Shown here: positions 32,692 to 46,862 of the stretch, one piece after another
How positions within the stretch are numbered: position 1 is the first letter of the stretch
How the letters are laid out: the number at the start of each line of letters is the position of its first letter
Source: a virus
Lineage: Duplodnaviria; Heunggongvirae; Uroviricota; Caudoviricetes
IMG/VR virus record: IMGVR_UViG_3300028048_001599
Length of the DNA: 64,000 nucleotides
Reading direction: 5' to 3' (one strand)
Notes under the pieces: generated by a model
Seen by the model: only the letters and a program-made list of their open reading frames with translations
Database searches by the model: none
Told to the model about the DNA's origin: nothing
Position numbers and translations under genes: made by a program

Positions 32692-32887
32692 CTAAAGATC
32701 ATTTACTTAGCTGGGAACATGATCTATATATTTAATCAGCTCGGAACTGTGAGAACTGTGCGTTGGACGTCTTACATATCTTACTGAGTAGGTGGTTAGA
32801 GGTAAGATACTTTTAAAAAATAGTTTAAAAAACTATTTATAAAATAAAGTTATTGTGTTATAATATATACATAATAAAAATAAACAT

Positions 32888-33222
32888 GGGGGTATGGTGG
32901 AATTGGCAGACACAAGGGACTTGCTGTTGACTGCTTGGATAAAACCAAGTATACCATAGGAAACTATGGGGAGTGCCTTTGGGGAAACCCTTAGAGTAGA
33001 AGTCGCCTAAACGGGGAATGTGTCAACAAAATCCCGTACCAATGCGAAGTGTAAGACTTCAGAAGTGTGTAGAGGCTATACAGCGACTACCTAAACCACA
33101 ATGTGGCATGGTAAAGAGTGAGTCCAGACTACAACGATATCAGTCGGCTATGGTGACATAGAGTAGTAAGAAAATCCCTCGGAGTAACATCCATACGGGT
33201 TCGAGTCCCGTTACCCCCACCA
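32888..33222 (+). tRNA. trnL: tRNA-Leu(TAA), intron-containing (exons 32888-32922 and 33171-33222)
   Basis: joined exons give AGGGA-CTTAAAA-TCCCT anticodon arm, long variable arm, T-arm, A73 + CCA. Confidence 0.88.
32923..33170 (+). mobile_element. group I intron (248 nt, ORF-less) in the tRNA-Leu anticodon
   Basis: follows U34, ends in omega-G; P3 AGTCGC/GCGACT, P4 CGGG/CCCG, R-like GTAGAGGCTA, S-like GAGTCC, P9 ACTAC/GTAGT. Confidence 0.85.
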
Positions 33223-33259
33223 TAAAAAAGAAGTGTAATTTAGCGAGGATATTAAATGT

Positions 33260-33784
33260 ATGGAATATCAAAGAGTACCTATTAAGACAGAGGGTTTTGA
33301 AGGATGTACTGTTGATACAGATGGTATATTATATAAGAATGATGGTACAAAATTTACATATTATGAAAACCATAAAGGCTATTATATGATATATCAAAGT
33401 GGATATATTCGTAAATCAGTACATAGTATTGTTGCTGAAACATTTATACATAATGATAGACCTGGTATAGCTACTATGGTTAATCATAAAGATGGGAATA
33501 AGCACAACAATTCTGTCGATAATCTTGAATGGGTTACATCATCTGAGAATGTAAGGCATGCAGTAGATGTACTTGGGGTAAATTATTCAAGTAATAACGG
33601 TAATGCAAGGGCAATAAAAGGAATAAATAAGTATGATTGTAGTGTTATATACTTTCCTACTATTGCAGATGCAGGCAGACATTTTAGACCCGATAATCCA
33701 GTTAGAGGAAAGGTTTCTATTTGGCGTGTACTTAAAGGTATGAGAAAATCTGTTTATGACTATTATTGGTATTATGACGATTGA
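33260..33784 (+). CDS. free-standing HNH homing endonuclease (HNH_3 + NUMOD1-like)
   Basis: HSIVAETF...VNHKDGNKHNNSVDNLEWVTSSEN..H; C-terminal F.TIADAGR. Confidence 0.9.
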   Translation: MEYQRVPIKTEGFEGCTVDTDGILYKNDGTKFTYYENHKGYYMIYQSGYIRKSVHSIVAETFIHNDRPGIATMVNHKDGNKHNNSVDNLEWVTSSENVRHAVDVLGVNYSSNNGNARAIKGINKYDCSVIYFPTIADAGRHFRPDNPVRGKVSIWRVLKGMRKSVYDYYWYYDD

Positions 33785-33801
33785 ATAAATCGTTATATAT
33801 A

Positions 33802-34075
33802 TGACTTGTCAATGTCATTAAACTTGATAGGTGATAACTACCTGAAGGGTTCTATTTAGTACATTTCAGCTTGTGTACTACCATTGCGTAGAGTGCTAGT
33901 CGACGGCTTTAGAGCTAACTTTACAATGGGAACAGTGCATATATATTGTTGGAATTGCTAAGTATGACTTAGTGTGAAACCTCGTGCGGTTGTGCTGTAA
34001 CACATGGGCAGAGAGAAACTGCGGAGCGTAGAAAAAGCAAAAATGCCTTTACAGAGGTAGAAGTAGCTTTAGAGA
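33802..34075 (+). ncRNA. unknown structured RNA starting with an H-type pseudoknot, copy 1
   Basis: TGAC-TTGTCAAT-GTCA-TTAAAC-TTGATAG; related to 35480; 3' boundary approximate. Confidence 0.4.
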
Positions 34076-34114
34076 CATCGTTGTGAGGTTACCGATGTCA
34101 ATTTATTAAAAAAT

Positions 34115-34182
34115 TACGGTAGCACATATAACAGTTACTTCAGAAAATATTGAACTATAAACTGTTGTAGATTTTCTCCGTA
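34115..34182 (+). ncRNA. Y-RNA-like motif, copy 1 (short loop)
   Basis: outer stem, TAGCACA, 9-bp stem, TACTTCA ... GATTTTCT. Confidence 0.6.
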
Positions 34183-34278
34183 TACTTTCATGGATTCTCA
34201 GTTAGAAGTGAGGTATTAAAATTAACTGTGACTTATCTGGTTAGTACCGACTTGATAAGTATATAAAGGTACAAATTG

Positions 34279-34501
34279 AATGTGGCAGTGCAGAGGACGG
34301 TTACTTCAGAAGATTTTATGATTGGTGCTCTTTTATGGGTACATGTGATCTACTACTTTAGTGTAGACGTTCTGTAACACGTTATTGCAGGAGCGTCCAT
34401 GGCTCTAATATTGGGGGTTTCGCTTCAGCCTTAGAAGCACTTAAATTTAATAGAGCTGGACTACGGTCTGGTTCATTACTGTTCTCGATTTTATCCACAT
34501 T
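34279..34501 (+). ncRNA. Y-RNA-like motif, copy 2 (~170-nt insert)
   Basis: AATGTGG/CCACATT, CAGTGCA, GAGGACGGT/ACTGTTCTC, TACTTCA, GATTTTAT. Confidence 0.6.
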
Positions 34502-34510
34502 ATTTTTTAA

Positions 34511-34666
34511 ATGGCGACAGCGTAGGAAACAGTTACTTCAAAAATTATAAATTTTTTACATTTAAACAAAGCAGCTATGTCTTATAAGACTATGTTGTAA
34601 GATTAACGGTGGATATATCTGCCGTACATATTAAGATTTTTTACTGTTTTCGATTTTCTTCGCTAT
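34511..34666 (+). ncRNA. Y-RNA-like motif, copy 3 (~100-nt insert)
   Basis: ATGGCGA/TCGCTAT, CAGCGTA, GGAAACAGT/ACTGTTTTC, TACTTCA, GATTTTCT. Confidence 0.6.
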
Positions 34667-34673
34667 AACATTT

Positions 34674-34767
34674 GTTGGTATGACGGAAATATAGACGTGG
34701 GTTCTCGCGTGAGCCTGATGCAGAAAGCTAATGCATCGTACAGGTGTAAATCCTGTTGCCAGCACCA
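34674..34767 (+). ncRNA. aberrant class-II tRNA-like RNA A
   Basis: 7-bp acceptor + A73 + CCA, D loop lacks GG, 6-nt anticodon loop, long variable arm, T loop TGTAAAT. Confidence 0.7.
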
Positions 34768-34813
34768 GTTGCTACTAATTAGTAGTAATGTTTTCACTCA
34801 TTTCCATAGTAGA

Positions 34814-34854
34814 TGACAAATCGGAAAGACGATTGACACTCTGGAAAGACAGGG
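34814..34854 (+). repeat. tandem GAAAGA-loop hairpin motif, copy 2
   Basis: TGACA-AATCG-GAAAGA-CGATT-GACA-CTCTG-GAAAGA-CAGGG. Confidence 0.7.
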
Positions 34855-34891
34855 GTATATACTAAAAAGAAAGAAGATAGGTGAATGTATT

Positions 34892-35146
34892 ATGAGTATG
34901 AATCAGACCTTTTATAAATTTTTGGAAGAGAGTACGACTTCTACGAATACTCAGCTACGAAAATATGCTTCTGCACTTTATGGGTACATCAACACTCTGC
35001 CTAAGTTTCCCAAGAAGAATAAGGATAGGAAAACTGTGGAGCAGTCCTTAAAGGCTTCAATGGGGGAGACTTTTGACAGCTTTATGTTTGAGTATGTATG
35101 GCAGGCGTATGAGCAGAAGAAAATGATGTCCGTGTTCTTTGACTAA
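34892..35146 (+). CDS. YozE-like (SAM-like) small protein
   Basis: TFYKFL...FPK...F...W.AY pattern. Confidence 0.5.
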   Translation: MSMNQTFYKFLEESTTSTNTQLRKYASALYGYINTLPKFPKKNKDRKTVEQSLKASMGETFDSFMFEYVWQAYEQKKMMSVFFD

Positions 35147-35190
35147 AATAGTACGCAGTCGTGTAGTATCGTTTTCTTCTCTATTTTTAT

Positions 35191-35281
35191 GTCACTGTGG
35201 CGAAATTATAGACGCTATACCTTGGGTAGAGATACTTGAAATTGAAGTATCGTACAGGTGTAAATCCTGTCAGTGACACCA
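35191..35281 (+). ncRNA. aberrant class-II tRNA-like RNA B
   Basis: GTCACTG/CAGTGAC + A73 + CCA, D loop lacks GG, truncated anticodon hairpin TACC-TTG-GGTA, 7-bp variable arm, T loop TGTAAAT. Confidence 0.7.
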
Positions 35282-35403
35282 CTAAAATTGTATAGATGAT
35301 AAAAGTAGTTTAAATAAAATTCATTGTGACAAAAGCGATAAGCGAAACTAAGCATGAGATATGAGTAGAATCTCATCTTTTAGTAGTCTATACAATTCTA
35401 TAT

Positions 35404-35476
35404 TCCCTCATAGCTCAGCAGGTAGAGCAAACGGCTGTTAACCGTTGGGTCGTAGGTTCGAACCCTACTGGGGGAG
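35404..35476 (+). tRNA. trnN: tRNA-Asn(GTT)
   Basis: canonical cloverleaf, loop CTGTTAA. Confidence 0.93.
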
Positions 35477-35479
35477 CGC

Positions 35480-35730
35480 CGACTTATCAATGTCGTAAAA
35501 CTTGAGAAGTGTAGCATACTTGAGAGCTTATGGAAGTGTAAAAGTTTGGGGGTATCTATAGGTACCACATGGAAGTAAGTAAAATGTGAATCCGAAGCAG
35601 TCGCCCCTCAGCAAATAGGGGTACATAGAAGGATTGCAAAGACTGAAAGTTAGTGCTGTAATGAGTAAGTCAAGGCACCGTGGGGATGTCGGTGTCAAAT
35701 CCTTGAATAGCATAACTGCAATCGTTCCCT
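35480..35730 (+). ncRNA. unknown structured RNA starting with an H-type pseudoknot, copy 2
   Basis: CGAC-TTATCAAT-GTCG-TAAAAC-TTGAGAA immediately after tRNA-Asn; 3' boundary approximate. Confidence 0.4.
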
Positions 35731-35833
35731 TATATACTTATATAATTGTTGCAGACTGATTTATGTACAATATTCAAAAGGATACGCTTACAGGGAAGTT
35801 TATCCATGCACTATGTAGGATATAGTGCGACAT

Positions 35834-35911
35834 GATTCGGTAGTTCAGCTGGTCGTTAGAACACCGTCTATACCAAGGCGGAGGTCAGGGGTTCAAATCC
35901 TCTCCGAATCA
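35834..35911 (+). tRNA. tRNA-Asp-like body with 8-nt anticodon loop (TATACCAA), identity undetermined
   Basis: arms closely match tRNA-Asp at 42831; loop expanded and altered. Confidence 0.6.
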
Positions 35912-36222
35912 CTACTTATAATCTTTGATAATGGGGATTATAAATATTATACAGACTATCTTGAGTGCTGTTACATTATCTATGATTTATAAGGATGCGA
36001 CATGGAATAGCAAGTTGAATTGGTGGTGTGGAGCTGCAAAGCGTAGAAGCATCAGTGATTAAGGATTTATCCGACTTGTTCCTTATAGATTGAAATTAAG
36101 CTAAGGATGTCAGGGTAACTCTCCATATACATTTGTATATAGGGCAAGATAGTTGGTAACAACTTGAGTATGATATGATGAGAGATAGAGTTACAGATAG
36201 GTAGTGGGAAAGCCTATTATAT

Positions 36223-36293
36223 GCAAGTATGGTGTAGGGGTAACATATCAGCTTCCCAAGCTGAGGTCACGGGTTCAAATCCCGCTACTTGCT
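36223..36293 (+). tRNA. trnG: tRNA-Gly(CCC)
   Basis: cloverleaf, loop TTCCCAA, U73. Confidence 0.88.
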
Positions 36294-36409
36294 CTTATAA
36301 TGTATTGATTTTTTAACAACTCATTTGTTTTCCAATATATTACATTTATGTGTCAGATATACCTCAAAAGGTCGTCCATACCCTTAGCCATATATTTGAC
36401 ACATTATAT

Positions 36410-36479
36410 ACTGTACTAGCTTAAAGGTAAAGCAGTCGATTACAAACGATGGATATTAGTTCAAATCTAATGTACAGTA
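36410..36479 (+). tRNA. aberrant tRNA (4-bp anticodon stem, 8-nt loop ATTACAAA), identity undetermined
   Basis: perfect acceptor ACTGTAC/GTACAGT, D arm, T arm ATTAG-TTCAAAT-CTAAT. Confidence 0.55.
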
Positions 36480-36659
36480 CTTTTGGGTAAGGTGCTTTTG
36501 AAGTGAATATTGCATTTGTGGCTATTTGTCAGTATTGCTAATAGGGGTGGCACCAGTACAGGATAGAAAGAGGTTGATTCCTGTTTACATTGAGGATAGG
36601 TATTTATGAACCTTGAACCGGGTTTTCTCATTATCGGCTTTAACATTTTGCGGACTTGG

Positions 36660-36894
36660 AGAAATGAAGATGCGGCTGGATAAAACCGCCTGCCGACATA
36701 AATACTTAAATAAATACCGCAGTAATGGGTTTGTTCATTTTCTCTTGCCACTGCGGTATTGTATTATGCTGATGTAGCTCAATTGGCAGAGCAGCTGATT
36801 TGTAATCAGCAGGTTATGGGTTCAAGTCCCCTCATCAGCTTTACTTATTATAAGAAATGAAGATGCGGCTGGATAAAACCGCCTGCCGACATAA
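36660..36894 (+). repeat. 42-bp exact direct repeat (36660-36701, 36853-36894) flanking tRNA-Thr
   Basis: AGAAATGAAGATGCGGCTGGATAAAACCGCCTGCCGACATAA twice. Confidence 0.9.
36768..36840 (+). tRNA. trnT: tRNA-Thr(TGT)
   Basis: canonical cloverleaf, loop TTTGTAA. Confidence 0.93.
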
Positions 36895-36925
36895 GTATCT
36901 TTATTTTTTTTTACTATTTTTGCAC

Positions 36926-37465
36926 TTTGACAGTTAAATAAGTTTCATTACACCTAAGTGTATGACATCTGGTAAATGTGCTTAGACATTCGTAGAGTTA
37001 GGTTGTGTAACGATAGCTACACTTCAGTGAACTTTGATGCATGGTGATGTGTATCGTAAATACGAATGGTATTCAAAATACATTGGGGTAGAACACAAAT
37101 ACAGTGGCAACCATAATTCTGACTACCTATGTAGGGATACATAGGGGTAAGAGCCAACTATATAAGCCGTGATGGGCTTGTACCTTATGTTGTTGGTAAA
37201 TGCTAAATAAGGTTGTTAGCCTTGAAATAACATTGTATTTGATACTATTAGCTGAATGGCTGGTATACAAAAGTATTGTGAAAAGTTTTTTTTATTTCTG
37301 AATACTCAGTGAACGTTGCAGACTAAAAATTCTGTTGGAGATAACATGGGTGAAGAAGTCAGGAGGTCGCTTCTTTTGGCTCAGACTTCACTTCTCTATC
37401 GTTTAATAACCTCTGTGTATGGTGATACCTTGAAGGAGGGTAATGAAACTTATTTAACTGTCAAA
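36926..37465 (+). ncRNA. large structured ncRNA, ROOL-like, copy 1
   Basis: closed by a perfect 26-bp inverted repeat; shares CCTAAGTGTATGAC, GTGCTTAGACAT, TACA.TGGCAACC, AAGGTTGTTAGCCTTGAAATAACATTGTA with copy 2; family from memory only. Confidence 0.55.
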
Positions 37466-37486
37466 ACTGTACCTTGATAATTTAAT

Positions 37487-37925
37487 ATGCTGTTTTAGAC
37501 CTAAGTGTATGACGTCTTGTTGGCGTGCTTAGACATCTGTTGTAGGTAGACCTTTAACTGATAGGTTTGGGGTAGTGACTTATGTATACAAGTGATTGAT
37601 ATGCGTTGAAAACAGGTGGTACTAAAATACAGTGACATAAAGCAAAAGTACAATGGCAACCGTAAAGCTGACATTGTGGTCAGAAATGGACACAAGGAAA
37701 GTGACATTAACCTAAAGTGTAGCACCTTTGGGGTAGTAAATGTTAATATCAAAACAAGGTTGTTAGCCTTGAAATAACATTGTACTTTGTACGAGTAGCA
37801 TAAAGGCTGTTGAATTACCATGTGAAAGTTGGGGGTATAGTCCTTCATAAGTTTGCAACTTCGGTTGTGCATAAGACAGTTACGGGATAGCAACCTGTTA
37901 TTGAAATTTATGTCTTATTAGCTTA
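37487..37925 (+). ncRNA. large structured ncRNA, ROOL-like, copy 2
   Basis: same ordered motif blocks as copy 1 with divergent intervening stems; boundaries approximate. Confidence 0.5.
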
Positions 37926-38004
37926 ATAATGTATATGTATGTAGGTACTATGAAGATAGTTAAAACAGTGTATTAAATTATCAAGATTACAAATAATAAA
38001 ATAT

Positions 38005-38089
38005 GCGGATATGGTGAAATCGGCAGACACGCAAGATTTAGGTTCTTGTACCGTAAGGTGTGCAGGTTCAAGTCCTGTTATCCGCACCA
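38005..38089 (+). tRNA. trnL: tRNA-Leu(TAG)
   Basis: class II cloverleaf, loop TTTAGGT, A73 + CCA. Confidence 0.93.
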
Positions 38090-38197
38090 AATGTCAGGTA
38101 GGTTCTACAATTATAAGTTCTTCTCACTTTCTTATTTTTGTAGCTACCTGACATTGTTAATTGAACTAATATTCATGATGCTAAATGGAGTAATATT

Positions 38198-38518
38198 ATG
38201 AGGTTATTTAGTTTAATAATTATAATAATTGAATTGGTACTATGTGTTGTATCTGCATATTTGACTATTTTAGGTTATGTAGAACCAGCACATATTTGTA
38301 TATTTTTGATACTTATACTATCTATATTATATATCATTCTTCATTCTGCTTATGTAGATAAAAAATATGTAATTATAGAAAATAAAATACTACATGAAGG
38401 TTATACTCTATTTTTAGATGGTGTAAAGACAGATATTAGTATGGTAGTATTAGAAGATTATTCTCTACAAAAAATTAATGTTGATAACATTAAAAAAGAT
38501 GTTTATATTACTTTATAA
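38198..38518 (+). CDS. small membrane protein
   Basis: two hydrophobic helices. Confidence 0.55.
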   Translation: MRLFSLIIIIIELVLCVVSAYLTILGYVEPAHICIFLILILSILYIILHSAYVDKKYVIIENKILHEGYTLFLDGVKTDISMVVLEDYSLQKINVDNIKKDVYITL

Positions 38519-38636
38519 TGTGATTATATGGGAAATAATAAACTTCGTAGATATATGAACGAATGTCGCAAATGGACAGATAAATCTACTAAACGTCATA
38601 AACATAATTTTAACCAACAGGGAATAATACATTCAT

Positions 38637-38855
38637 ATGAGTAAATTTGCAGTAGACTTAGTGACTGTGAGGTGTAAAAAGAAGCTTTTCAAGGCAAAAA
38701 GACGTGTTGCTATTGATAAAAGAGATTTCTATGAGTAGATGGTCAAGAAATATTCAAGACTAAGGGATGAAGCTGTTCAGTACGAGAAGGATTGTAGCAA
38801 GTACATAGAACAAGAATATACTAAAATTCTTAAGTTTACATCTGAAAATAATTGA
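38637..38855 (+). pseudogene. small basic ORF interrupted by an in-frame TAG (38736-38738)
   Basis: MSKFAV...DFYE*MVKKYSRL...ENN* in one frame. Confidence 0.35.
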
Positions 38856-39130
38856 TGTTTTAAATTGTGGTCGGTATATTTTATATATATATATCGACCA
38901 TAATTTTATATTATTTACTTTATAAGTCTATAGTTTAACTCATATGAAAAAGCATTGTTGCTGTATTAAGTTAAAACTTATGTATATGTTAATACCTTAA
39001 TATAATTTAGTACATAAATATTAAATCTTCTATTAATAGTCATAATAAGACATAAGATAAAATATCACATTTATTCTTACATATTTTTTAGTAAGTAAAT
39101 ATTAATTTTAATGGAAAGGTGTTAATGATT

Positions 39131-41332
39131 ATGCGGATTATTAAGCGAGATTCTTCAGAAGAGATATTTGACGTTAATAAGATTGTGAACGCTATTTCAA
39201 AGGCTAATTCTGCCACAGATGAAAATAATATAGCACCTGAGAAAATCAGGGATATAGCTGAGTATGTAGAATATAAATGTTCTAAATTAAGTCGAGCTGT
39301 ATCTGTTGAAGAAATTCAGGACATGGTAGAGAATCAGATTATGGCTGTTGGTGCATTTGAAGTAGCAAGAAATTATGTACGGTATCGTTATAAGAGGTCA
39401 CTTGAAAGACAGACTTCTGTTACTGACGCAAAAATTATCAGTCTTATTGAATGTAACAATGAAGAAGCAAAACAGGAGAACAGTAATAAAAACCCAGCTA
39501 TAAATAGTGTTCAGCGAGACTACATGGCAGGTGAAGTAAGCCGTGATTTAACAAAGCGTAAGTTACTCCCACCTGAAATTGTAGAAGCTCACGAAAGGGG
39601 TATTATACATTTCCATGATACTGATTACTATGCTCAGCACATGCACAATTGTGACCTTGTAAATCTTGAGGATATGTTACAAAATGGGACAGTTATTAGT
39701 GGTACAATGATAGAAAAGCCACACAGTTTTTCTACAGCTTGTAACATTGCAACTCAGATAATAGCACAGGTGGCATCTAATCAATACGGCGGTCAGAGTA
39801 TAAGTCTTACCCATCTTGCTCCTTTTGTTGACATTTCAAGAAAAAAGATTAAAAATGCAATTATCGAGGAACTTGAAGTGACTGGAACAGAGATGTCCGA
39901 GGAAAATATAAATAAGATTACTGAAATGCGTTTAAGAAAAGAGATTGAAAAAGGTATTCAGACTATACAGTATCAGGTTGTAACCTTACTCACAACTAAT
40001 GGTCAAGCACCTTTCTTATCTGTATATATGTACCTTAACGAGGCTCGTAATGAACAGGAAAAAGCAGATCTTGCCGTGATTATTGAAGAAACGTTAAAAC
40101 AAAGAATATTAGGGGTAAAAAACGAGAAGGGTGTAAGTATTACACCAGCTTTTCCGAAGTTAATATATGTTCTTGAAGAAGATAATATTCACGAAGGTGA
40201 TAAATATTGGGATTTGACAGTGCTTGCTGCAAAATGCACTGCCAAGAGAATGGTTCCTGATTACATATCAGAAAAGGTGATGCTTGAGTTAAAAGGTGAT
40301 GTATACACATGTATGGGTTGTCGTAGTTTCTTAACACCTGATGATTTTACAGATAAGGGTGTCGGAAACATTGCGAGAGCTAAAAATTATATACCTGGTA
40401 AACATAGATATTATGGTCGTTTCAATCAAGGGGTAGTTACTGTAAATCTTGTGGATATTGGTTTATCTGCAAATAAAGATATGAACAAATTCTGGGAAAT
40501 ATTCGATACAAGAATGGCACTTTGTCACAAAGCTTTAAGATGTAGACATGAGCGTCTAAAGGGTACACTGTCAGATGCAGCTCCTATTTTGTGGCAATAT
40601 GGGGCACTTGCACGTCTTGATAAGGGTGAAAAGATTGACGAATTACTGTATAATGGTTATTCAACAATATCATTGGGGTATGCTGGACTTTGGGAGTGTG
40701 TATACAGTCTTATAGGCAAGAAGTTGACTGAGCCAGAGGGTAAAGAACTCGGACTTGAGATTATGCGTAAACTTAATGAATACTGTGCTAAATGGCGGTC
40801 TGAGGAAAACATAGCTTATAGTTTATACGGTACACCTCTTGAGTCTACCACATATAAGTTTGCAAGATGTTTACAGCAACGTTTTGGTGTCATAAAGGGG
40901 GTAACAGATAAGAACTACATTACTAATTCTTATCATGTACATGTAACTGAACCTATTAACGCATTTGATAAACTTAAGATTGAATCAGAATTTCAGGCTC
41001 TTTCACCAGGTGGTGCTATAAGTTATGTAGAAGTTCCAAACATGACAAATAATATACCTGCTGTGTTAGCAATAATTCAATTTATATACGATAACATCAT
41101 GTATGCAGAACTAAACACAAAGAGTGATTATTGTCAATGTTGTGGGTATGATGGTGAAATTGAGATTGTAAAAGATGATGACAAACTCATTTGGAAATGT
41201 CCTAACTGTGGTAATACTGACCAGGACAAGTTAAATGTTGCAAGACGTACTTGTGGCTATATTGGGACTCAGTTTTGGAATCAGGGGCGTACTCAGGAGA
41301 TAAAAGAACGTGTTATTCATCTTTGTTGTTAA
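39131..41332 (+). CDS. nrdD: anaerobic (class III) ribonucleoside-triphosphate reductase
   Basis: N-terminal ATP cone (IIKRD...FD..KI..AI), HFHDTDY, CMGCRS, FNQGVV, C-terminal CxxC...CxxC and RRTCGYIG glycyl-radical loop. Confidence 0.96.
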   Translation: MRIIKRDSSEEIFDVNKIVNAISKANSATDENNIAPEKIRDIAEYVEYKCSKLSRAVSVEEIQDMVENQIMAVGAFEVARNYVRYRYKRSLERQTSVTDAKIISLIECNNEEAKQENSNKNPAINSVQRDYMAGEVSRDLTKRKLLPPEIVEAHERGIIHFHDTDYYAQHMHNCDLVNLEDMLQNGTVISGTMIEKPHSFSTACNIATQIIAQVASNQYGGQSISLTHLAPFVDISRKKIKNAIIEELEVTGTEMSEENINKITEMRLRKEIEKGIQTIQYQVVTLLTTNGQAPFLSVYMYLNEARNEQEKADLAVIIEETLKQRILGVKNEKGVSITPAFPKLIYVLEEDNIHEGDKYWDLTVLAAKCTAKRMVPDYISEKVMLELKGDVYTCMGCRSFLTPDDFTDKGVGNIARAKNYIPGKHRYYGRFNQGVVTVNLVDIGLSANKDMNKFWEIFDTRMALCHKALRCRHERLKGTLSDAAPILWQYGALARLDKGEKIDELLYNGYSTISLGYAGLWECVYSLIGKKLTEPEGKELGLEIMRKLNEYCAKWRSEENIAYSLYGTPLESTTYKFARCLQQRFGVIKGVTDKNYITNSYHVHVTEPINAFDKLKIESEFQALSPGGAISYVEVPNMTNNIPAVLAIIQFIYDNIMYAELNTKSDYCQCCGYDGEIEIVKDDDKLIWKCPNCGNTDQDKLNVARRTCGYIGTQFWNQGRTQEIKERVIHLCC

Positions 41333-41487
41333 TCAGGTTAAATAATTAGCACATTTTGTTATAACTATTTAGGTTATTAACTTGTAAAGGTGTGTTGATT
41401 ATGTTAAACTGGTTTATAGTCATGGTATTATTCATGTCCGAGAGAAAGCACAGGGGTAGCTAAGTTAATGAGGGCACAGGGTGTCCC

Positions 41488-41555
41488 GCAGGTATACAGG
41501 TTCGAGTCCTGTAAAGACAAGTTCGATTCTTGTCAGTGTATGGTACGAAACCTGC
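41488..41555 (+). ncRNA. element with two tandem T-loop hairpins inside a closing stem
   Basis: GCAGGT/ACCTGC enclosing TACAGG-TTCGAGT-CCTGTA and GACAAG-TTCGATT-CTTGTC. Confidence 0.5.
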
Positions 41556-41560
41556 CTTGA

Positions 41561-41629
41561 TGCAGTATGCGTAGGTCGCACGACATCTTCATACGGTGTC
41601 TTATGCAGGTTCGATTCCTGCTACTGCAA
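41561..41629 (+). tRNA. atypical tRNA with CAT anticodon
   Basis: TGCAGTA/TACTGCA acceptor, mini D arm with no 8-9 linker, 6-bp anticodon stem, loop TTCATAC, canonical T arm. Confidence 0.55.
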
Positions 41630-41636
41630 TTTATCT

Positions 41637-42015
41637 GGGGATGTAACGGTTTCGACAGGGTACGTGAGGTATGTTAAGCAAGCAGGCGGTCAGTCGCCTT
41701 ATATACTGAAACTTCAAAATAAACGCTACTAGAAATAGCAGACCTGTTGCACTTGCTGCCTGATTGGGCAGTAGCAACAGCTTGAGGCATGACCTCAAGT
41801 GCATCTTATGATAGTACCACGGATTGTAAGATGTATGGACAAGTGGTGAACGAAGTAGGGGTATGTCAAGACCACGACTTTGTATATTGACTACTGTGGT
41901 ATAAAACCTGTTTGTCGGTGTTATACTTTGGGAAATTTTAATAGATAAACTAAGCTTGTAGAAAAACATATTGAAGGTATTTTGGACAGGGGTTCGATTC
42001 CCCTCATCTCCACCA
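41637..42015 (+). ncRNA. ssrA: tmRNA; predicted tag (A)ATRNSRPVALAA* at 41725-41763
   Basis: GGGGATGTAACGGTTTCGAC 5' end, G3-U70, GGTTCGATTCC T arm, ACCA end; tag ends ALAA. Confidence 0.95.
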
Positions 42016-42189
42016 TAGTATATGAGGTGATTTACATGAACAAGTATTCTGAAATAAGTTATAACAATAAAAATATGTGTGATACACGATGAAGACTGAC
42101 AGATAAGCATGTTCAAACTTTCGATTTGATGGACTTAAGTAAACACCATTTGCTTATTAAGTATATTAAAATTGAGAAAGGTGGTTCAC

Positions 42190-42408
42190 ATGGCAGATTT
42201 TGAATTTGACATTGTAGAAGAAATAGGGGTACTCTCTGAGAGTAGACGTGGTTGGACTAGGGAACTGAACTTGGTTTCTTGGAATGGAGCTGACCCGAAG
42301 TATGATATACGTGACTGGTCGCCTGACCATGAGCGTATGGGTAAAGGTATTTCATTGAGTGTTGACGAGTTTAATGCTTTAAAAGAGATACTTGCAAATA
42401 CGGATTAA
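42190..42408 (+). CDS. YdbC/PC4-like ssDNA-binding protein
   Basis: FDIVEEIGVLSES.RGW..ELNLVSWNG..PKYDIRDWSPDH.RMGKGISL. Confidence 0.85.
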   Translation: MADFEFDIVEEIGVLSESRRGWTRELNLVSWNGADPKYDIRDWSPDHERMGKGISLSVDEFNALKEILANTD

Positions 42409-42421
42409 CAGGGGTGATTTT

Positions 42422-42667
42422 ATGATTATAGGCTTTGCAACTCAGTCTATGGATTTAACTACAATTTTTGTAGAACTCAGTCGTAAGGTTAGTGCTGAAA
42501 CAATAAAAAAGCTTGAGGGTAACCTTGATAAGTTTGTAGAAAATTACGGAGCACGTAACAATGGTGACTACAGTGGTTTCAATATTTATGCAGCTGTTGA
42601 AACAGTTATGAACAGGTCAAGATTAAAATGGAGATTTTTGAAGCCTGATGTATACATTTACTTCTAA
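42422..42667 (+). CDS. hypothetical protein
   Basis: ATG 42422 after GGGGTGA. Confidence 0.55.
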   Translation: MIIGFATQSMDLTTIFVELSRKVSAETIKKLEGNLDKFVENYGARNNGDYSGFNIYAAVETVMNRSRLKWRFLKPDVYIYF

Positions 42668-42748
42668 TTTGTTAATTTTGGACAAAAATCTGGTCGAAAA
42701 AAGGCATTTTCTTGTTAGATTTTTTCTTAGAATATTTTGAATATCCTA

Positions 42749-42777
42749 TTGACAAAGTTAGAAATTGATGTTATAAT
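42749..42777 (+). promoter_or_regulatory. consensus sigmaA promoter for the second tRNA/ro60 block
   Basis: TTGACA-17-TATAAT with TG. Confidence 0.85.
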
Positions 42778-42830
42778 TAATGTGTTCTTAAAAGTAGGTG
42801 AATTAAATAAGTTATTCGCCTACTTGTTTT

Positions 42831-42904
42831 GGTTCAATAGTTCAGTTGGTTAGAACGCCGCCCTGTCACGGCGGAGGTCAGGGGTTCGACTCCCCTTTGA
42901 ATCG
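42831..42904 (+). tRNA. trnD: tRNA-Asp(GTC)
   Basis: canonical cloverleaf, loop CTGTCAC, G73. Confidence 0.94.
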
Positions 42905-42907
42905 CTC

Positions 42908-42967
42908 ATGTAGGTAGGACAAACGATGTCTGTACGACATATTGGAATAAGTACCTTGTACCTACAT
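42908..42967 (+). ncRNA. small three-stem motif, copy 1
   Basis: AAACG-loop hairpin + GAYATATTGGAATAA-loop hairpin in a closing stem; second copy at 46863. Confidence 0.5.
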
Positions 42968-43025
42968 TTATATAGTAATCACAATCAAGTAGGCTCACGC
43001 CTCTTGATTAGTGTATTACATTTGT

Positions 43026-43112
43026 GGAGGAGTAAGCATAGTTGGTACTGCAGCGGATTGCTAATCCGTTACACTTGTTAAAGTGTCATAGGTTCAAGTC
43101 CTATCTTCTCCG
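43026..43112 (+). tRNA. trnS: tRNA-Ser(GCT)
   Basis: class II cloverleaf, loop TTGCTAA, G73. Confidence 0.92.
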
Positions 43113-43185
43113 TTGTTCATATAACACTCCTAATTTTGTGGTACATTGAGAAATTGGTGTACCACTTTTGAAAGGGTCGATAATT

Positions 43186-43401
43186 ATGGTAAATAAACGT
43201 ATTGTTCAGTATGTTAAATCGGTATACAAGAAGGGTGACAGAGTTGTCTGTTATGATATGACTGACCCTTATGTGCCTATTCAGTATGGTACTGAAGGTA
43301 CTGTAATGTTCGTTGACGATATCGGTACTATCCATGTTTTATGGGATAATGGTCGTACCATAGGTTTGGTATATGGCGAGGATAGCTTCGCAAAATGTTA
43401 G
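43186..43401 (+). CDS. DUF4314-domain protein
   Basis: GDRV...MTDPY.PI..GTEGTV..VDDIGTIHV.WDNG..IGL..GED. Confidence 0.8.
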   Translation: MVNKRIVQYVKSVYKKGDRVVCYDMTDPYVPIQYGTEGTVMFVDDIGTIHVLWDNGRTIGLVYGEDSFAKC

Positions 43402-43523
43402 GGGGTAGTACAAATGCGTAGGTTTTACTACTATGTAGGTATACGTAACCTTAATGGTATTGACTCATTTGTAGTTAAGACTCTTAAAAAGAGTAATGAG
43501 CATCTTACTGTAAGAAAATATTA

Positions 43524-43598
43524 GGATTGTTAGCTCATTTGGTCGAGAGCATTCGGCTCATAACCGAACGGTGGTAGGTTCGAATCCTACACAATCCA
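43524..43598 (+). tRNA. tRNA-CAT, probably Ile2 (lysidine) or elongator Met
   Basis: canonical cloverleaf, loop CTCATAA, G1G2A3 acceptor like Firmicutes Ile2. Confidence 0.88.
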
Positions 43599-43697
43599 TT
43601 AGGGAAAGAGTAATGTCAGGTATTCACGACTTACGAGAGTCTGGGTACGGAATTAGGGTCGCATTACTTAGGCAGGTATGGGGTGAACCTGCTATTA

Positions 43698-43774
43698 TCG
43701 ACATTGTAGACAGAAGTTACTTCACAGCAAATGAAATGGTTTTGAATCCTATTACTTCTGTTGATTTTATTCGA
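43698..43774 (+). ncRNA. Y-RNA-like motif, copy 4, ~80 nt upstream of ro60
   Basis: CATTGTA, GACAGAAGT/ACTTCTGTT, TACTTCA, GATTTTAT; loop has a degenerate T-loop GGTTTTGAATCC. Confidence 0.65.
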
Positions 43775-43853
43775 CTTTATATTAAAATATGACATTGATT
43801 GTCAGTAATATAAAGCCAATCAGACATTGTTTTATTCTGAAAGGGGTAGTAAA

Positions 43854-45311
43854 ATGAGTAAATTTAACAGCACAACTATCGGTAAGTCAAAGACTGTCAA
43901 TAAAGAGGGTCACGTTGCGTACAAGATGGGCGAAAAAGAGAAGTTGGTTTCAATGGTACTAACTTCATTTTTTAACGAATCTAAGTTTTACGGGGACAAC
44001 TCTGAGGAACTTGTAGAGACACTTATAAACGTCATTAAGGAAGACCCGAAATTTGTTTCCAATCTTGCAGTATTTGCACGTAGGGAGTTTAACATGAGGT
44101 CTGTATCTCAGGTACTTACTGCATATCTTGCCAATATTGTAGAGGGAAAACCTTACGTAAAAGAAACGATAAGGGGTATTGTTGGTCGTGGTGATGACAT
44201 AACGGAGTTGCTGTCTTTTTATTTGAGCACATTCGGCAAGCCTATACCTAACTCGTTGCGTAAAGGTATTAATCGTGTTTTCACGTCTTTTAATGAATAC
44301 ACTCTTGCTAAGTACAAGGGTTCAAAGAAGGGCGTTAAAATGAAGGATGTTATTAACATCTGTCACCCATCTCCTAAAAACGAGGAGCAGTCACAGATGT
44401 GGAAACGTTGTCTTGAAGACAGCCTGCAAGTACCGTACACGTGGGAAGTAGAAATAGCAAAGAGGGGTAATACCAAAGAGGTTTGGGAGGAACTTATAGA
44501 CTCAGACAAAGTTGGGTATATGGCACTTCTTCGTAATCTTCGTAACATAGCAAATGCAGAGGTATCAAACCTCGATAAGGTTCTTGATATTATCTCTGAC
44601 CCTGAACGTATCCGTAAGTCGAAACAGTTACCGTTCCGTTATCTGTCAGCTTACTTAGCCTTGAGGGGTAATCCTTGTATTAATGCTAATGTACCTTATT
44701 CTAAGATTTTTTCAGCACTTGAAAAGGCTGTCAATATATCTGCTGAAAATATGCCTAAGTATAAAGGTAGAACAGTTATTGCCATTGATGTTTCGGGTTC
44801 AATGTCGAGGGGAGGGGTAGGTAAACAGTCTGATGTAACTCCTATTCAAATTGCTTCAGTACTTGGACTGCTTGCAAACAAGATGTGTGAAGATAGTATA
44901 GTATACCTATTTAATGACAGCATTAAGACTTTGGCAGTTTCAGAGTACACACCTGTTCTTGAAACGGCAGTAACCATGAATGCAGGTGGGTTTACATATA
45001 TGGAGTTACCCATTATCGAGTTGTGTGAGAGAAACATTAAGGCTGACCGTATTATTTACATTTCTGATAATCAGTCTAACAGTGTGAGCGCACTGGCGGT
45101 ACAGGGTTGGCTTAATGAGTACCGTAAGATTAGTCCTGACTGTTGGCTTCACGCTATTGATATAGAAGGGTACGGTACACAGCAATTTTGTGGTAAGAAT
45201 ACCAATATTATTGCAGGGTGGTCTGAGAAGGTGCTTGACTTTATACCAATGGCAGAACAAGGGGTATCTTCTCTTATAGACGTTATCGAACAATATGTTT
45301 GGTATGACTAA
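43854..45311 (+). CDS. rsr: Ro60/Rsr RNA-binding protein (TROVE + vWA)
   Basis: VNKEGHVAY, FARREFNMRS, LAKYK, TWE, GYMALLRNLRN, QLPFRYLSAY; MIDAS DVSGSM; ATG 43854. Confidence 0.93.
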   Translation: MSKFNSTTIGKSKTVNKEGHVAYKMGEKEKLVSMVLTSFFNESKFYGDNSEELVETLINVIKEDPKFVSNLAVFARREFNMRSVSQVLTAYLANIVEGKPYVKETIRGIVGRGDDITELLSFYLSTFGKPIPNSLRKGINRVFTSFNEYTLAKYKGSKKGVKMKDVINICHPSPKNEEQSQMWKRCLEDSLQVPYTWEVEIAKRGNTKEVWEELIDSDKVGYMALLRNLRNIANAEVSNLDKVLDIISDPERIRKSKQLPFRYLSAYLALRGNPCINANVPYSKIFSALEKAVNISAENMPKYKGRTVIAIDVSGSMSRGGVGKQSDVTPIQIASVLGLLANKMCEDSIVYLFNDSIKTLAVSEYTPVLETAVTMNAGGFTYMELPIIELCERNIKADRIIYISDNQSNSVSALAVQGWLNEYRKISPDCWLHAIDIEGYGTQQFCGKNTNIIAGWSEKVLDFIPMAEQGVSSLIDVIEQYVWYD

Positions 45312-45348
45312 TATTTCAAGACCTTGAGTGTTTCTCAAGGTCACTCGA

Positions 45349-45422
45349 TGAGGTATGGCCTAATGGTAGGGCATCAGACTTTGACTCTGTGTGTATGGGT
45401 TCGACTCCCGTTACCTCAGCCA
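45349..45422 (+). tRNA. trnQ: tRNA-Gln(TTG)
   Basis: cloverleaf, loop CTTTGAC, U1-A72, G73 + CCA. Confidence 0.93.
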
Positions 45423-45489
45423 CGTGTTAGTAATTATGTCAAGCGAGGACTGAGTGATATATTAGAATAAGCTCTTACTAACAAAATAT

Positions 45490-45571
45490 GGGGGTATGCT
45501 GGAATTGGCAGACAGGGAAGACTCAAAATCTTTTGCAGCAATGCGTGTGGGTTCAAGTCCCACTACCCCCA
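45490..45571 (+). tRNA. trnL: tRNA-Leu(CAA)
   Basis: class II cloverleaf, loop CTCAAAA. Confidence 0.93.
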
Positions 45572-45663
45572 CTACAAATTGGATAGATGCACCATTTTGA
45601 TTATGCTATATAAGTAATATTGTTGGAACACATAAAATAGACAATGAGGGACTGGGTGATTAA

Positions 45664-45828
45664 ATGCATTATTATGTATACGGTAGACATTACCAGACAG
45701 GTAGGGAAGAATATATAGGTACTTATGATACTATGTTGGAGGCTATACAGAAAATTGCTTTTTGTTATCATATAGATAGTACTTCAGGTTTTGGTCTGCA
45801 ATATTACTATTTTATGAAACAGCATTAA
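45664..45828 (+). CDS. small hypothetical protein (54 aa)
   Basis: GGGTGA RBS, MHYYVYGRHY... Confidence 0.45.
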   Translation: MHYYVYGRHYQTGREEYIGTYDTMLEAIQKIAFCYHIDSTSGFGLQYYYFMKQH

Positions 45829-46021
45829 GTATATGGGGTATATACCTTTGTACACATTTATTATATTATAAAGAAGTGATTATATGTATATTCTGTATGA
45901 AATCGAATGTATAAAAGGAATACCGTATATAACTTGTAAGGGGTACGCCTCTTGTAAATTTATAGCATCAAATTGGGTATCTGAAAAGCCGGATATTCGT
46001 ATTTATGTAAATTATTAAAAT

Positions 46022-46097
46022 CGGGGTATAGCGCAGTTGGTAGCGCGCCTGCTTTGGGAGCAGGATGTCGGGGGTTCGAGTCCCTCTACTCCGACCA
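46022..46097 (+). tRNA. trnP: tRNA-Pro(TGG)
   Basis: canonical cloverleaf, loop TTTGGGA, CCA. Confidence 0.95.
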
Positions 46098-46236
46098 TAC
46101 AAACTAAGACACCGAGCAAGGCTTAGGAAGTTATCAGTACCGATGTAGTGTCTATCAAGGTATTGGCTCAGGCATACACGAGGTAAAGTGTTCGTACAAA
46201 CGGTATGTTGAATAAGCAGTATGTTAAGAATTACCG

Positions 46237-46275
46237 TGACAAATTGGAGAGTCAGTTGACAGCCGGAAAGACGGC
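46237..46275 (+). repeat. tandem GAAAGA-loop hairpin motif, copy 3
   Basis: TGACA-AATTG-GAGAGT-CAGTT-GACA-GCCG-GAAAGA-CGGC. Confidence 0.7.
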
Positions 46276-46285
46276 ATTTATATAT

Positions 46286-46362
46286 TGCAGAGTAGTAGCA
46301 GTGGTTAGCTCGTCAGGTTCATATCCTAAAGGTCAGTGGTTCGAGTCCATTCTCTGCAACCA
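46286..46362 (+). tRNA. trnM: tRNA-Met(CAT), initiator-like
   Basis: AGCTCGTCAGG-TTCATAT-CCTAA-AGGTC resembles fMet; AACCA end; one anticodon-stem mismatch. Confidence 0.8.
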
Positions 46363-46482
46363 TATAAATTAGGTGCAACTTTTACATAGTTGTTAAATGT
46401 CCAATGAGGTGAAGTACTGAGTTAAACATCGTTAAGCATGGAGTAGCAGGGATACTTAAAGAGGAAACAGCCTATAATACGT

Positions 46483-46555
46483 GTGTCCGTAGCTCAGTGG
46501 GTAGAGTAAAGGACTGAAAATCCTTGTGTGAGTGGTTCAATTCCATTCAGCAGCA
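46483..46555 (+). pseudogene. degenerate tRNA-Phe(GAA)
   Basis: intact D, anticodon (CTGAAAA) and T arms; three acceptor-stem mismatches. Confidence 0.6.
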
Positions 46556-46561
46556 TTAAAA

Positions 46562-46638: not shown

Positions 46639-46645
46639 TTTATAT

Positions 46646-46860: not shown

Positions 46861-46862
46861 TA

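What the first reader, a model, noticed from the sequence alone, without database searches (positions are those of the whole stretch)
34115..45311. Modular family of four Y-RNA-like RNAs sharing one stem but carrying different cargo domains, with an element-encoded Ro60
Four loci (34115-34182, 34279-34501, 34511-34666, 43698-43774) share an exact architecture: outer stem; 7-nt left strand (TAGCACA/CAGTGCA/CAGCGTA/CATTGTA); a 9-bp stem that fully covaries (TATAACAGT/ACTGTTGTA, GAGGACGGT/ACTGTTCTC, GGAAACAGT/ACTGTTTTC, GACAGAAGT/ACTTCTGTT); invariant TACTTCA; and right strand GATTTT(C/A)T. The enclosed domain differs completely (~18, ~170, ~100, ~30 nt). Copy 4 is 80 nt upstream of ro60 and has a degenerate T-loop. 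Established: bacterial Y RNAs pair their ends into a Ro60-binding stem and use the distal domain to tether effectors (PNPase) or mimic tRNA (YrlA), and lie next to rsr. Inference: this element encodes a programmable Ro60 RNP set, one protein with several interchangeable RNA adaptors, three of them tandem 9.5 kb from the gene. I consider this the best candidate for the undescribed system.
Basis: partly seen in the sequence, partly recalled or inferred. Interest (0 to 1): 0.92.

Follow-up and report, generated by a model that had tools for sequence, protein, structure and literature searches.

The report
Phage Ro60 with four Y RNAs
A giant rumen phage encodes the ring-shaped RNA-binding protein Ro60 and four small RNAs that share one docking stem but carry different bodies; this is a divergent, unannotated branch of the known Ro60/Y-RNA partnership, not a new kind of system.

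Summary
Four + strand loci (34115-34182, 34279-34501, 34511-34666, 43698-43774) share one architecture, and a covariance model finds only these four in the window (59-65 bits; next best hit 12.5).

The same "handle" recurs hundreds of times beside Ro60/TROVE genes of Clostridia and their phages. Nearly all copies are on the Ro60 strand, mostly within 1 kb upstream, in arrays of up to 12. All stem pairs covary.

Among 60 related genomes scored for the handle, it was found only in TROVE-positive ones (4 of 5, against 0 of 55). About half the family members elsewhere carry the permuted tRNA-like body of YrlA. Rfam's YrlA model sees those only below threshold, and sees none of the four window copies.

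So these are Y RNAs of a divergent handle type that lacks the GNCGAA motif. This window is unusual in three ways. Three copies lie 9.2-9.7 kb from Ro60. None has a tRNA-like body. Two carry large bodies (169 and 103 nt) with no relatives found.

Rumen metatranscriptome contigs put the trio in a highly covered RNA island. Ro60 binding itself is inferred, not shown. The scan has found this family before on other DNA. Verdict: new variant of a known kind.

The parts
34115..34182 (+). Y-like RNA copy 1. Outer stem 34115-34119 / 34178-34182; bulge 34120; 2 bp 34121-22 / 34176-77; loop CACA / GAUUUU; 9-bp stem 34127-34135 / 34161-34169; UACUUC 34136-34141; 19-nt apical loop.
   Evidence: Sequence; fold z = -3.3; R2 63.2 bits, E 3.7e-13. 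The loop departs from the family UGYA consensus at two positions.
34279..34501 (+). Y-like RNA copy 2. Outer stem 34279-34285 / 34495-34501; 9-bp stem 34293-34301 / 34478-34486; UACUUC 34302-34307; 169-nt multi-hairpin body 34308-34476.
   Evidence: Sequence; fold z = -3.07; R2 59.0 bits. The body has no Rfam match at E<=10 and no homolog in the 135 other Ro60-bearing sequences held. Its K-M pair is a G/A mismatch.
34511..34666 (+). Y-like RNA copy 3. Outer stem 34511-34517 / 34660-34666; 9-bp stem 34525-34533 / 34643-34651; UACUUC 34534-34539; 103-nt body with two hairpins. A tRNA-like unit follows 5-8 nt downstream.
   Evidence: Sequence; fold z = -3.28; R2 65.2 bits; no homolog of the body found.
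43698..43774 (+). Y-like RNA copy 4. Outer stem 43698-43701 / 43771-43774; 9-bp stem 43709-43717 / 43754-43762; UACUUC 43718-43723; 30-nt body with a T-loop-like GGUUUUGAAUCC. It ends 79-80 nt upstream of Ro60.
   Evidence: Sequence; R2 65.3 bits. Handle and body are identical in a relative of about 95% nucleotide identity (L014, L015). Its own fold is not significant (z = -1.16).
43854..45311 (+). Ro60 (Rsr) gene, 485 aa: TROVE ring domain plus vWA domain with a DxSxS metal site.
   Evidence: Pfam TROVE 8.1e-35 and vWA_Ro60 1.2e-8. Best solved relatives are the Thermus phage phiLo Ro60 (9KOP / 9L5Y, 7e-38), then D. radiodurans Rsr 2NVO and Xenopus Ro60 1YVP. D312, S314 and S316 are invariant in 28 homologs.
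30811..46920 (+). Co-oriented RNA island that holds all four copies, together with tRNAs, a tmRNA (41637-42015), two ROOL RNAs (36930-37978) and tRNA-like units. It is context and the likely source of the precursor transcripts.
   Evidence: Rfam and ARAGORN. In metatranscriptome runs X1 and X3, zero-mismatch contigs over 31.1-36.7 kb have depth 122-291; coding flanks have depth 2-10.

Best explanation
The four loci are genes for Y RNAs, the small RNA partners of the phage's own Ro60 protein. They belong to a large Clostridia/phage branch of the bacterial Y RNA family.

Each RNA pairs its 5' and 3' ends into a conserved 'handle'. From the outside in, the handle has an outer stem, a bulged pyrimidine, two pairs, a UGYA / GNUUUU internal loop, a 9-bp stem and UACUUC. 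This handle is the likely Ro60 docking site. It is laid out like the Rsr-binding module of YrlA: two stems around an asymmetric loop, then the conserved YUAY kink.

The apical body is the variable effector module. The three distal copies are probably made as part of a long, highly expressed precursor of the RNA island, and released by tRNA-processing enzymes that cut at the flanking tRNA-like units.

Bound to Ro60, the RNAs would gate the ring and/or tether it to partners. The host 3'-5' exoribonuclease PNPase is the published precedent. The particle would steer quality control or decay of structured RNAs during infection.

Shown here: the structure, family membership, genomic linkage to Ro60, and presence in RNA libraries. 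Inferred: Ro60 binding, the processing route, and any cargo-specific partner.
For: (1) Only these four loci in the window match the model (59-65 bits; next best 12.5).

(2) Family covariation. In 67 relatives, 96.8% of cells pair, against 60% in shuffles and 35-49% with slid partners. All 14 pairs show double changes. A further pair that was not in the search model covaries G-C 30 / U-A 28 / C-G 5.

(3) Linkage to Ro60.
- R2 hits: 215 of 215 lie on the Ro60 strand, in 77 of 80 bacterial loci.
- My own pattern scanner: 239 of 240 on that strand, and 218 of 234 upstream hits within 1 kb.
- Five complete or near-complete phage genomes: all 28 hits lie within about 2 kb of the Ro60 gene, with up to 12 copies.
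- 60 related genomes scored: handle found in 4 of 5 TROVE-positive and 0 of 55 TROVE-negative ones (Fisher p about 1e-5 by my arithmetic). The fifth TROVE-positive genome has a hit.
- Ro60 is the only gene shared by all 70 loci compared. RtcB follows it in 20.

(4) Kinship with YrlA. Rfam RF02553 matches two family members in L022 at 37.8 and 30.8 bits, with T arm, closed acceptor-like stem and D arm in YrlA order. Of 132 members with 60-95-nt bodies, 122 have a T-loop word. The UUAC after the stem fits YrlA's conserved YUAY (PMC4201824; bioRxiv 10.1101/312249).

(5) Expression. In runs X1 and X3, zero-mismatch contigs over 33146-36729 have depth 291 and 122. Coding flanks and the Ro60 contig have depth 2-10.

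(6) Precedent. The Thermus phage phiLo Ro60 binds two upstream Y-like RNAs and host PNPase in vitro (PMC12135203).
Against: - No binding data exist for this handle.
- The published Ro60-contact motif (GNCGAAN0-1G in bacteria, GGUCCGA in animals) is absent.
- Rfam YrlA and Y_RNA give no match to the window copies even at E<=10.
- None of the four has the tRNA-like module that Chen et al. 2014 found in at least one Y RNA of each species.
- Copy 1 departs from the loop consensus at its two best-conserved positions. Copy 2 breaks the covarying pair.
- Three copies lie 9.2-9.7 kb from Ro60, the extreme of the family distribution.
- Contig depth is one figure per contig. It cannot show discrete small RNAs or their ends, and copy 4 lies in a low-depth contig.
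- The loci searched were chosen because they hold Ro60. The bacterial whole-genome searches scored only 57-150 of several thousand first-look candidates per genome.
Confidence: 0.8

Rival explanations
1. The handle is not a Ro60 site. It is a protective or processing clamp, or the site of another protein, on stable phage RNAs whose bodies act alone, for example as decoys for host nucleases or tRNA-directed defences. On this reading, nearness to Ro60 reflects a shared 'RNA island', not a physical partnership.
For: The known Ro60-contact motif is absent (PMC4201824). Three copies sit far from Ro60, among tRNAs, tRNA mimics, ROOL RNAs and a tmRNA. No binding test was possible.
Against: Ro60 is the only gene shared by all 70 loci compared. 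Handles lie right next to Ro60 in bacterial chromosomes and phages of very different context. None was found in 55 TROVE-negative relatives. Family members include YrlA-type RNAs.
Confidence: 0.1
2. The elements are mainly cis-acting. They would be Ro60 operator or leader structures that control expression of the Ro60 mRNA (autoregulation), not trans-acting cofactors.
For: Most family copies lie within 1 kb upstream of Ro60 on the same strand. Copy 4 ends 80 nt before the start codon and could lie in the 5' UTR.
Against: Copies 1-3 are 9.2-9.7 kb away, with tRNAs, ROOL RNAs, a 737-aa NrdD gene and a tmRNA in between. Arrays of up to 12 units interleaved with tRNA genes, and units downstream of Ro60, do not fit a leader. 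Characterised homologs are trans-acting Rsr-bound RNAs (PMC4201824).
Confidence: 0.06
3. Some copies, copy 1 above all, are decaying duplicates without function.
For: Copy 1 has CACA where 60-65 of 67 relatives have U and G. In one related strain (run X20) the copy 1 region carries an insertion and a replaced segment.
Against: All four keep full stem pairing and score 59-65 bits. In the X17 strain, at most 4 differences fall in 34212-34700, against at least 15 in the next 140 nt (my count from tables 3 and 8).
Confidence: 0.04

Closest known systems
YrlA (Rfam RF02553; Salmonella Typhimurium, Mycobacterium smegmatis, mycobacteriophages; Chen et al. 2014, PMC4201824; structure in bioRxiv 10.1101/312249)
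   Same: - Encoded next to Ro60/rsr on the same strand, often with tRNAs.
- The 5' and 3' ends pair into two stems around an asymmetric internal loop with the longer 3' strand, followed by a conserved YUAY (here UUAC).
- Modular build: a Ro60-binding module plus an effector module.
- Many relatives of the window copies carry the same permuted T arm / closed acceptor stem / D arm body.
   Different: - The window copies have no tRNA-like body and no RF02553 match at E<=10. Even the YrlA-type relatives reach only 31-38 bits, against a gathering score of 69.
- The handle sequence differs: bulge plus UGYA / GNUUUU and UACUUC in place of GNCGAAN0-1G.
- The inner stem is 9 bp, where the Rfam model has 7.
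YrlB / Yrn2-type second Y RNAs (S. Typhimurium, M. smegmatis, D. radiodurans; PMC4201824)
   Same: These are additional Rsr-bound RNAs without a full tRNA-like module, encoded in the same cluster and made from polycistronic precursors with tRNAs. M. smegmatis YrlB has a possible T arm, like copy 4.
   Different: [quoted passage not shown] Here there are four, with bodies from 19 to 169 nt, and relatives have up to 12 per locus. There is no sequence similarity.
Thermus phage phiLo Ro60 with Yrl1 and Yrl2 (PMC12135203; PDB 9KOP, 9L5Y)
   Same: A phage-encoded Ro60 that is the best solved relative of this protein (E 7e-38). Y-like RNAs lie upstream. Binding to Ro60 and to host PNPase was shown in vitro.
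   Different: The phiLo RNAs were picked by their CGAA motif, which is absent here. There are two RNAs, both adjacent to the gene.
Salmonella rsr-yrlBA-rtcBA RNA repair operon (PMC7790460)
   Same: In 21 of the 136 Ro60-bearing sequences held, an RtcB ligase gene lies within the fetched flanks. In 20 of the 70 loci compared it is the gene right after Ro60.
   Different: No RtcB relative is in this 64-kb window. The context here is a phage tRNA / tmRNA / ROOL island.

Membership tests
Y RNA (functional class: Ro60-bound ncRNA) | Physically bound by Ro60 | not testable with these tools
   No RNA-protein binding tool was available. This is inferred from genomic linkage only.
Y RNA (functional class) | 5' and 3' ends pair into a long stem that carries a conserved, bulged or looped protein-binding helix, with a variable distal module | tested here: met
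   Folds. Covariation of 17 pairs, a conserved bulge and a 4x6 loop. Bodies of 19-169 nt.
Y RNA (functional class) | Encoded near the Ro60 gene on the same strand; present only where Ro60 is | tested here: met
   Copy 4 lies 80 nt upstream. Copies 1-3 lie 9.2-9.7 kb upstream on the same strand. In the family, 239 of 240 copies are on the Ro60 strand and 218 of 234 upstream copies are within 1 kb. The handle was found in 4 of 5 TROVE-positive and 0 of 55 TROVE-negative genomes.
Y RNA (functional class) | Ro60-contact sequence GNCGAAN0-1G (bacteria) or GGUCCGA (animals) in the 5' strand | tested here: not met
   It is absent from all four copies. The family consensus at that place is Y-A-K-U-G-Y-A.
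YrlA (Rfam RF02553) | Score at or above the curated gathering threshold (69 bits) | tested here: not met
   No RF02553 match at E<=10 in 33900-34900 or 43590-43870, and none at gathering score in the window. Relatives in L022 score 37.8 and 30.8 bits.
YrlA (Rfam RF02553) | Permuted tRNA-like effector module (T arm, closed acceptor-like stem, D arm) | tested here: not met
   It is absent in the four window copies; copy 4 has only a T-loop-like hairpin. It is present in many relatives: 122 of 132 members with 60-95-nt bodies have a T-loop word and 52 also have a D-arm word.
YrlA (Rfam RF02553) | Conserved YUAY right after the stem (the kink nucleotides) | tested here: met
   UUAC in all four copies. 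In 67 relatives, U is kept in 67 of 67, A in 64 and C in 66 at these columns. The feature is as described in PMC4201824 and bioRxiv 10.1101/312249.
Ro60 / Rsr protein (TROVE + vWA) | TROVE HEAT-repeat ring domain followed by a vWA domain with a MIDAS DxSxS site | tested here: met
   Pfam PF05731 at 121 bits and PF25045 at 35.5 bits. Sequence matches to solved Ro60 structures. DVSGS is at residues 312-316, with D312, S314 and S316 invariant in alignment A2.

The most novel reading that the evidence does not exclude
The phage uses a panel of Y RNAs with non-tRNA bodies as adaptors that send one Ro60 ring, and a recruited host exoribonuclease or other factor, to different RNA targets, or that sequester different host RNA-repair or defence factors. 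The panel includes two large lineage-specific domains of 169 and 103 nt. Bodies would be exchanged between strains, as the altered copy 1 in one rumen strain hints. The separate, highly expressed trio would then be a regulatory unit uncoupled from Ro60 transcription.
Probability: 0.25. Interest if true: 0.7.

Novelty: new variant of a known kind. Interest (0 to 1): 0.4.

Why it matters
Ro60/Y-RNA particles are known from animals, a few bacteria and a few phages, yet the function of the Y RNA effector modules is still largely open.

This handle type marks a large set of loci in rumen and gut Clostridia and their phages. I counted at least 215 copies in 77 bacterial loci, plus dozens of viral contigs. 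Rfam's YrlA model does not reach its threshold on any copy tested, so standard annotation would miss them.

The family offers many natural "body swaps" on one constant docking stem. That makes it a good comparative set for asking what the effector modules bind. A specific covariance model would let these RNAs be annotated.

For this phage, the four RNAs add a Ro60 particle to an RNA island that already holds tRNAs, a tmRNA and ROOL RNAs. This points to heavy investment in RNA maintenance during infection. It does not reveal a new kind of system.

Tried and rejected
- Rfam at E<=10 over both regions gave only noise: SCARNA1, snoRNAs and miRNAs at 15-20 bits.
- Megablast of 33900-45400 against 50,697 phage records matched only tRNA pieces.
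- A single-protein scan of IMG/VR found no relative. An alignment was needed.
- An exact-pattern scan of IMG/VR (GTTACTTCA, gap, ACTNNTNTNGATTTT) returned 13 loci. All are chance matches, with 3-6 of 9 stem positions pairing. The pattern was too specific to this phage.
- No whole genome is held for the window.
- Candidate pairs inside the 4x6 loop were tested and rejected: 15-338, 16-337 and 17-335 show no covariation.
- The bodies of copies 2-4 found no homolog in other loci by blastn or nhmmer. Copy 4's body was found only in the near-identical strain.
- L014, the 95%-identical contig, begins just after copy 3, so conservation of the trio there could not be read.
- L016 (Ro60 60% identical) has two adjacent copies and none in the 10 kb upstream.
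- In the whole-genome search, G003 gave no hit although its locus L124 has one at 39.4 bits. The first-look filter loses some matches.
- Laid contigs give no RNA ends, and the copy 4 region has only low-depth cover. Nothing can be concluded for copy 4.
- The review PMC10870794 and the supplementary tables of PMC4201824 are not held. I therefore could not check whether any Clostridia YrlA of this handle type was already listed there.
- Full-text searches found no paper that describes this handle. The library is incomplete.

Full report
**What is in the window**

The window is part of a giant phage of the cattle rumen. The same stretch is held by bovine-gut metagenomes and metatranscriptomes, and a contig about 95% identical is 132 kb long.

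Between about 30.8 and 46.9 kb lies a co-oriented RNA island. It holds about 16-18 tRNA genes, a tmRNA (41637-42015) and two tandem ROOL RNAs (36930-37458 and 37477-37978). It also holds an anaerobic ribonucleotide reductase gene (39119-41332) and a 485-aa gene at 43854-45311. That gene has a TROVE domain (E 8.1e-35) and a Ro60-type vWA domain.

The protein's best solved relative is the Ro60 of Thermus phage phiLo (E 7e-38). Deinococcus Rsr and Xenopus and human Ro60 follow. It is a bona fide Ro60.

The four loci are at the stated coordinates on the + strand. The word GTTACTTCA occurs exactly four times in 64 kb, only there.

Each RNA folds on its own into the described shape: outer stem, internal loop, 9-bp stem, apical domain. 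Copies 1-3 have z-scores near -3. Copy 4 folds the same way but not significantly (z = -1.16).

A covariance model built from the four (R1), and a second built from 67 relatives (R2), score them at 59-85 bits. With filters off, the next best hit in the window is 12.5 bits, E 1.2.

**The family**

R1 found two tandem copies directly upstream of the Ro60 gene of a phage whose Ro60 is only 60% identical (L016).

I then fetched 51 IMG/VR loci and 80 bacterial-genome loci that encode relatives of this Ro60.
- R1 gave 124 hits in the viral loci.
- R2 gave 215 hits at E<=0.01 in the bacterial loci, all 215 on the Ro60 strand, in 77 of 80 loci. Two of the three loci without a hit have less than 200 nt upstream of the gene. 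In the third (L133), close relatives carry the array 4.6-5 kb upstream, which would fall beyond the contig end.
- A pattern-and-pairing scanner that I wrote independently found 240 copies in 97 sequences. Of these, 239 are on the Ro60 strand and 218 of 234 upstream copies are within 1 kb of the start codon (median 281 nt). The scanner found 1-8 copies per locus.

The hosts are mostly rumen and gut Clostridia, with isolates of Clostridium, Acetivibrio, Oceanirhabdus and Bacillus.

**Structure of the handle**

On the 67-sequence alignment, 96.8% of cells form standard pairs. Shuffles give 60% and slid partners give 35-49%. All 14 modelled pairs show compensatory changes.

That alignment was fitted to the model, so I also tested columns the model treated as unpaired. 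Its neighbour is A-U in 63 of 67.

From the outside in, the handle is therefore:
- an outer stem of 5-7 bp;
- one bulged nucleotide (C 37, U 20, A 8);
- two pairs;
- a 4-nt / 6-nt internal loop, UGYA opposite GNUUUU;
- a 9-bp stem;
- a nearly invariant UACUUC.

Other candidate pairs inside the loop do not covary.

Copy 1 deviates at the two best-conserved loop positions (CACA). Copy 2 has G/A at the covarying pair.

**Is the motif tied to Ro60?**

- In five complete or near-complete phage genomes of 83-213 kb, all 28 R2 hits lie within about 2 kb of the Ro60 gene. One phage has 12 tandem copies.
- In five bacterial genomes, every hit found lies directly upstream of Ro60.
- I sampled 61 genomes of one bacterial family; 60 could be scored with R2. 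The handle was found in 4, all of them among the 5 that have a TROVE gene, and each hit lies just upstream of that gene on its strand. None of the 55 TROVE-negative genomes had a hit. By my arithmetic the Fisher exact p is about 1e-5. The fifth TROVE-positive genome does have a copy (39.4 bits) that the fast pre-filter lost.
- Among 70 loci with 4 kb on both sides, Ro60 is the only gene common to all. The next real family is RtcB RNA ligase, directly downstream in 20 loci.

The caveat is that the bacterial whole-genome searches scored only a fraction of first-look candidates.

**Relation to known Y RNAs**

Rfam holds YrlA (RF02553). It does not match the window copies even at E<=10.

It does match two family members of L022 at 37.8 and 30.8 bits, below its gathering score of 69. 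The match runs through their T arm, closed acceptor-like stem and D arm, in the permuted order typical of YrlA.

Across the family, 122 of 132 members with 60-95-nt bodies contain a T-loop word, and 52 also contain a D-arm word. The 33 members with bodies under 25 nt are simple hairpins.

The layout matches the published YrlA stem: two helices around an asymmetric internal loop with the longer 3' strand, then a conserved YUAY, here UUAC (PMC4201824; bioRxiv 10.1101/312249). What is missing is the published contact motif GNCGAAN0-1G. A different conserved sequence stands in its place.

The literature already states the following:
- Y RNAs are modular, with a Ro60-binding stem plus an effector-binding module.
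- Y RNAs are co-transcribed with tRNAs.
- Phages carry them (PMC4201824).
- A phage Ro60 binds two upstream Y-like RNAs and host PNPase in vitro (PMC12135203).

**What is particular here**

1. The arrangement is split. Copy 4 is 80 nt from Ro60, but copies 1-3 are 9.2-9.7 kb upstream, the extreme of the family distribution. A related phage with a similar island has both its copies adjacent to Ro60.
2. None of the four has a tRNA-like body. Free-standing tRNA-like units lie directly after copy 3 (a tRNA model hit at 35191-35278).
3. Copies 2 and 3 carry 169- and 103-nt multi-hairpin bodies. Neither has an Rfam match or a homolog in the 135 other Ro60-bearing sequences held.

**Expression**

In two metatranscriptome runs of one rumen sample, zero-mismatch contigs cover 33146-36729 and 32316-35796 at depths of 291 and 122. 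In the same runs, contigs over the coding flanks, NrdD and the Ro60 gene have depths of about 2-10. High-depth contigs from two other studies also cover parts of the trio.

This fits strong transcription of the island as long precursors. Contigs cannot show discrete small RNAs, their ends or their strand, and copy 4 lies in the low-depth Ro60 contig.

In one related strain, copies 2 and 3 are nearly unchanged while the next 140 nt carry at least 15 differences. In another, the copy 1 region has an insertion and a replaced segment.

**Mechanism**

Most likely (about 0.8) these are Ro60-bound Y RNAs. They would be released from island precursors at the flanking tRNA-like units. The handle would dock on the Ro60 ring, and the body would act as gate or tether.

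That different bodies recruit different partners is plausible but untested; I put it near 0.4.

The rivals all fit the linkage data less well:
- a Ro60-independent clamp or decoy;
- a cis-acting leader;
- decaying duplicates.

**Standing in this scan and verdict**

Earlier follow-ups of this scan describe the same kind of array, and apparently the same handle, on other DNA. I used them only as pointers and tested the claims here.

Verdict: a real, well-supported feature. It is a divergent, unannotated variant of a known RNA-protein system, of moderate interest.

Noticed in passing
window 36930-37458 and 37477-37978 (+): Two tandem ROOL RNAs (173 and 150 bits). They carry the highest metatranscriptome contig depths of the stretch, up to about 2500.
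   Followed up: partly
window 41637-42015 (+): A phage-encoded tmRNA with tag peptide ATRNSRPVALAA, directly after a weak tRNA-Met-like gene (41561-41629). It is also deeply covered in RNA libraries.
   Followed up: no
window 34674-35281 (+): tRNA-like units lie flush against the 3' end of copy 3. One gives a weak tRNA model hit at 35191-35278 (31.5 bits). They may serve as RNase P/Z cut sites that release the Y RNAs.
   Followed up: partly
window 36410-36480 (+): A tRNA gene that ARAGORN cannot assign (two-base 'anticodon' call). Rfam's tRNA model scores it at 53 bits.
   Followed up: no
L048 (IMGVR_UViG_3300037280_000066), 15-1894 and contig end 181720-181860: Twelve tandem handle-bearing RNAs upstream of one Ro60 gene in a 182-kb phage. 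This is the largest array seen here.
   Followed up: partly
L022 9045-9887: The Y RNA array is interleaved with tRNA genes and truncated tRNA-like units. For example, 9193-9253 is a 61-nt unit without an anticodon arm, and 9678-9743 has a 4-nt anticodon loop.
   Followed up: no
L018 9085-9227 (-): The only handle copy found on the strand opposite to Ro60. It lies next to a minus-strand tRNA (8913-8985) and looks like a local inversion.
   Followed up: no
L046 9252-10508 and 20 other loci: An RtcB RNA ligase gene lies directly downstream of Ro60 in about 15% of the loci, as in the Salmonella rsr-yrlBA-rtcBA operon. There is none in this window.
   Followed up: partly
window 34147-34180, run X20: A related rumen strain has a 13-nt insertion in the copy 1 body and 53 other letters in place of 9 nt at its 3' side. 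This hints at body or handle turnover between strains.
   Followed up: no
window 33260-33784 (+): An HNH endonuclease ORF (174 aa) lies inside the RNA island, upstream of the trio, near what another reader called an intron-bearing tRNA-Leu.
   Followed up: no
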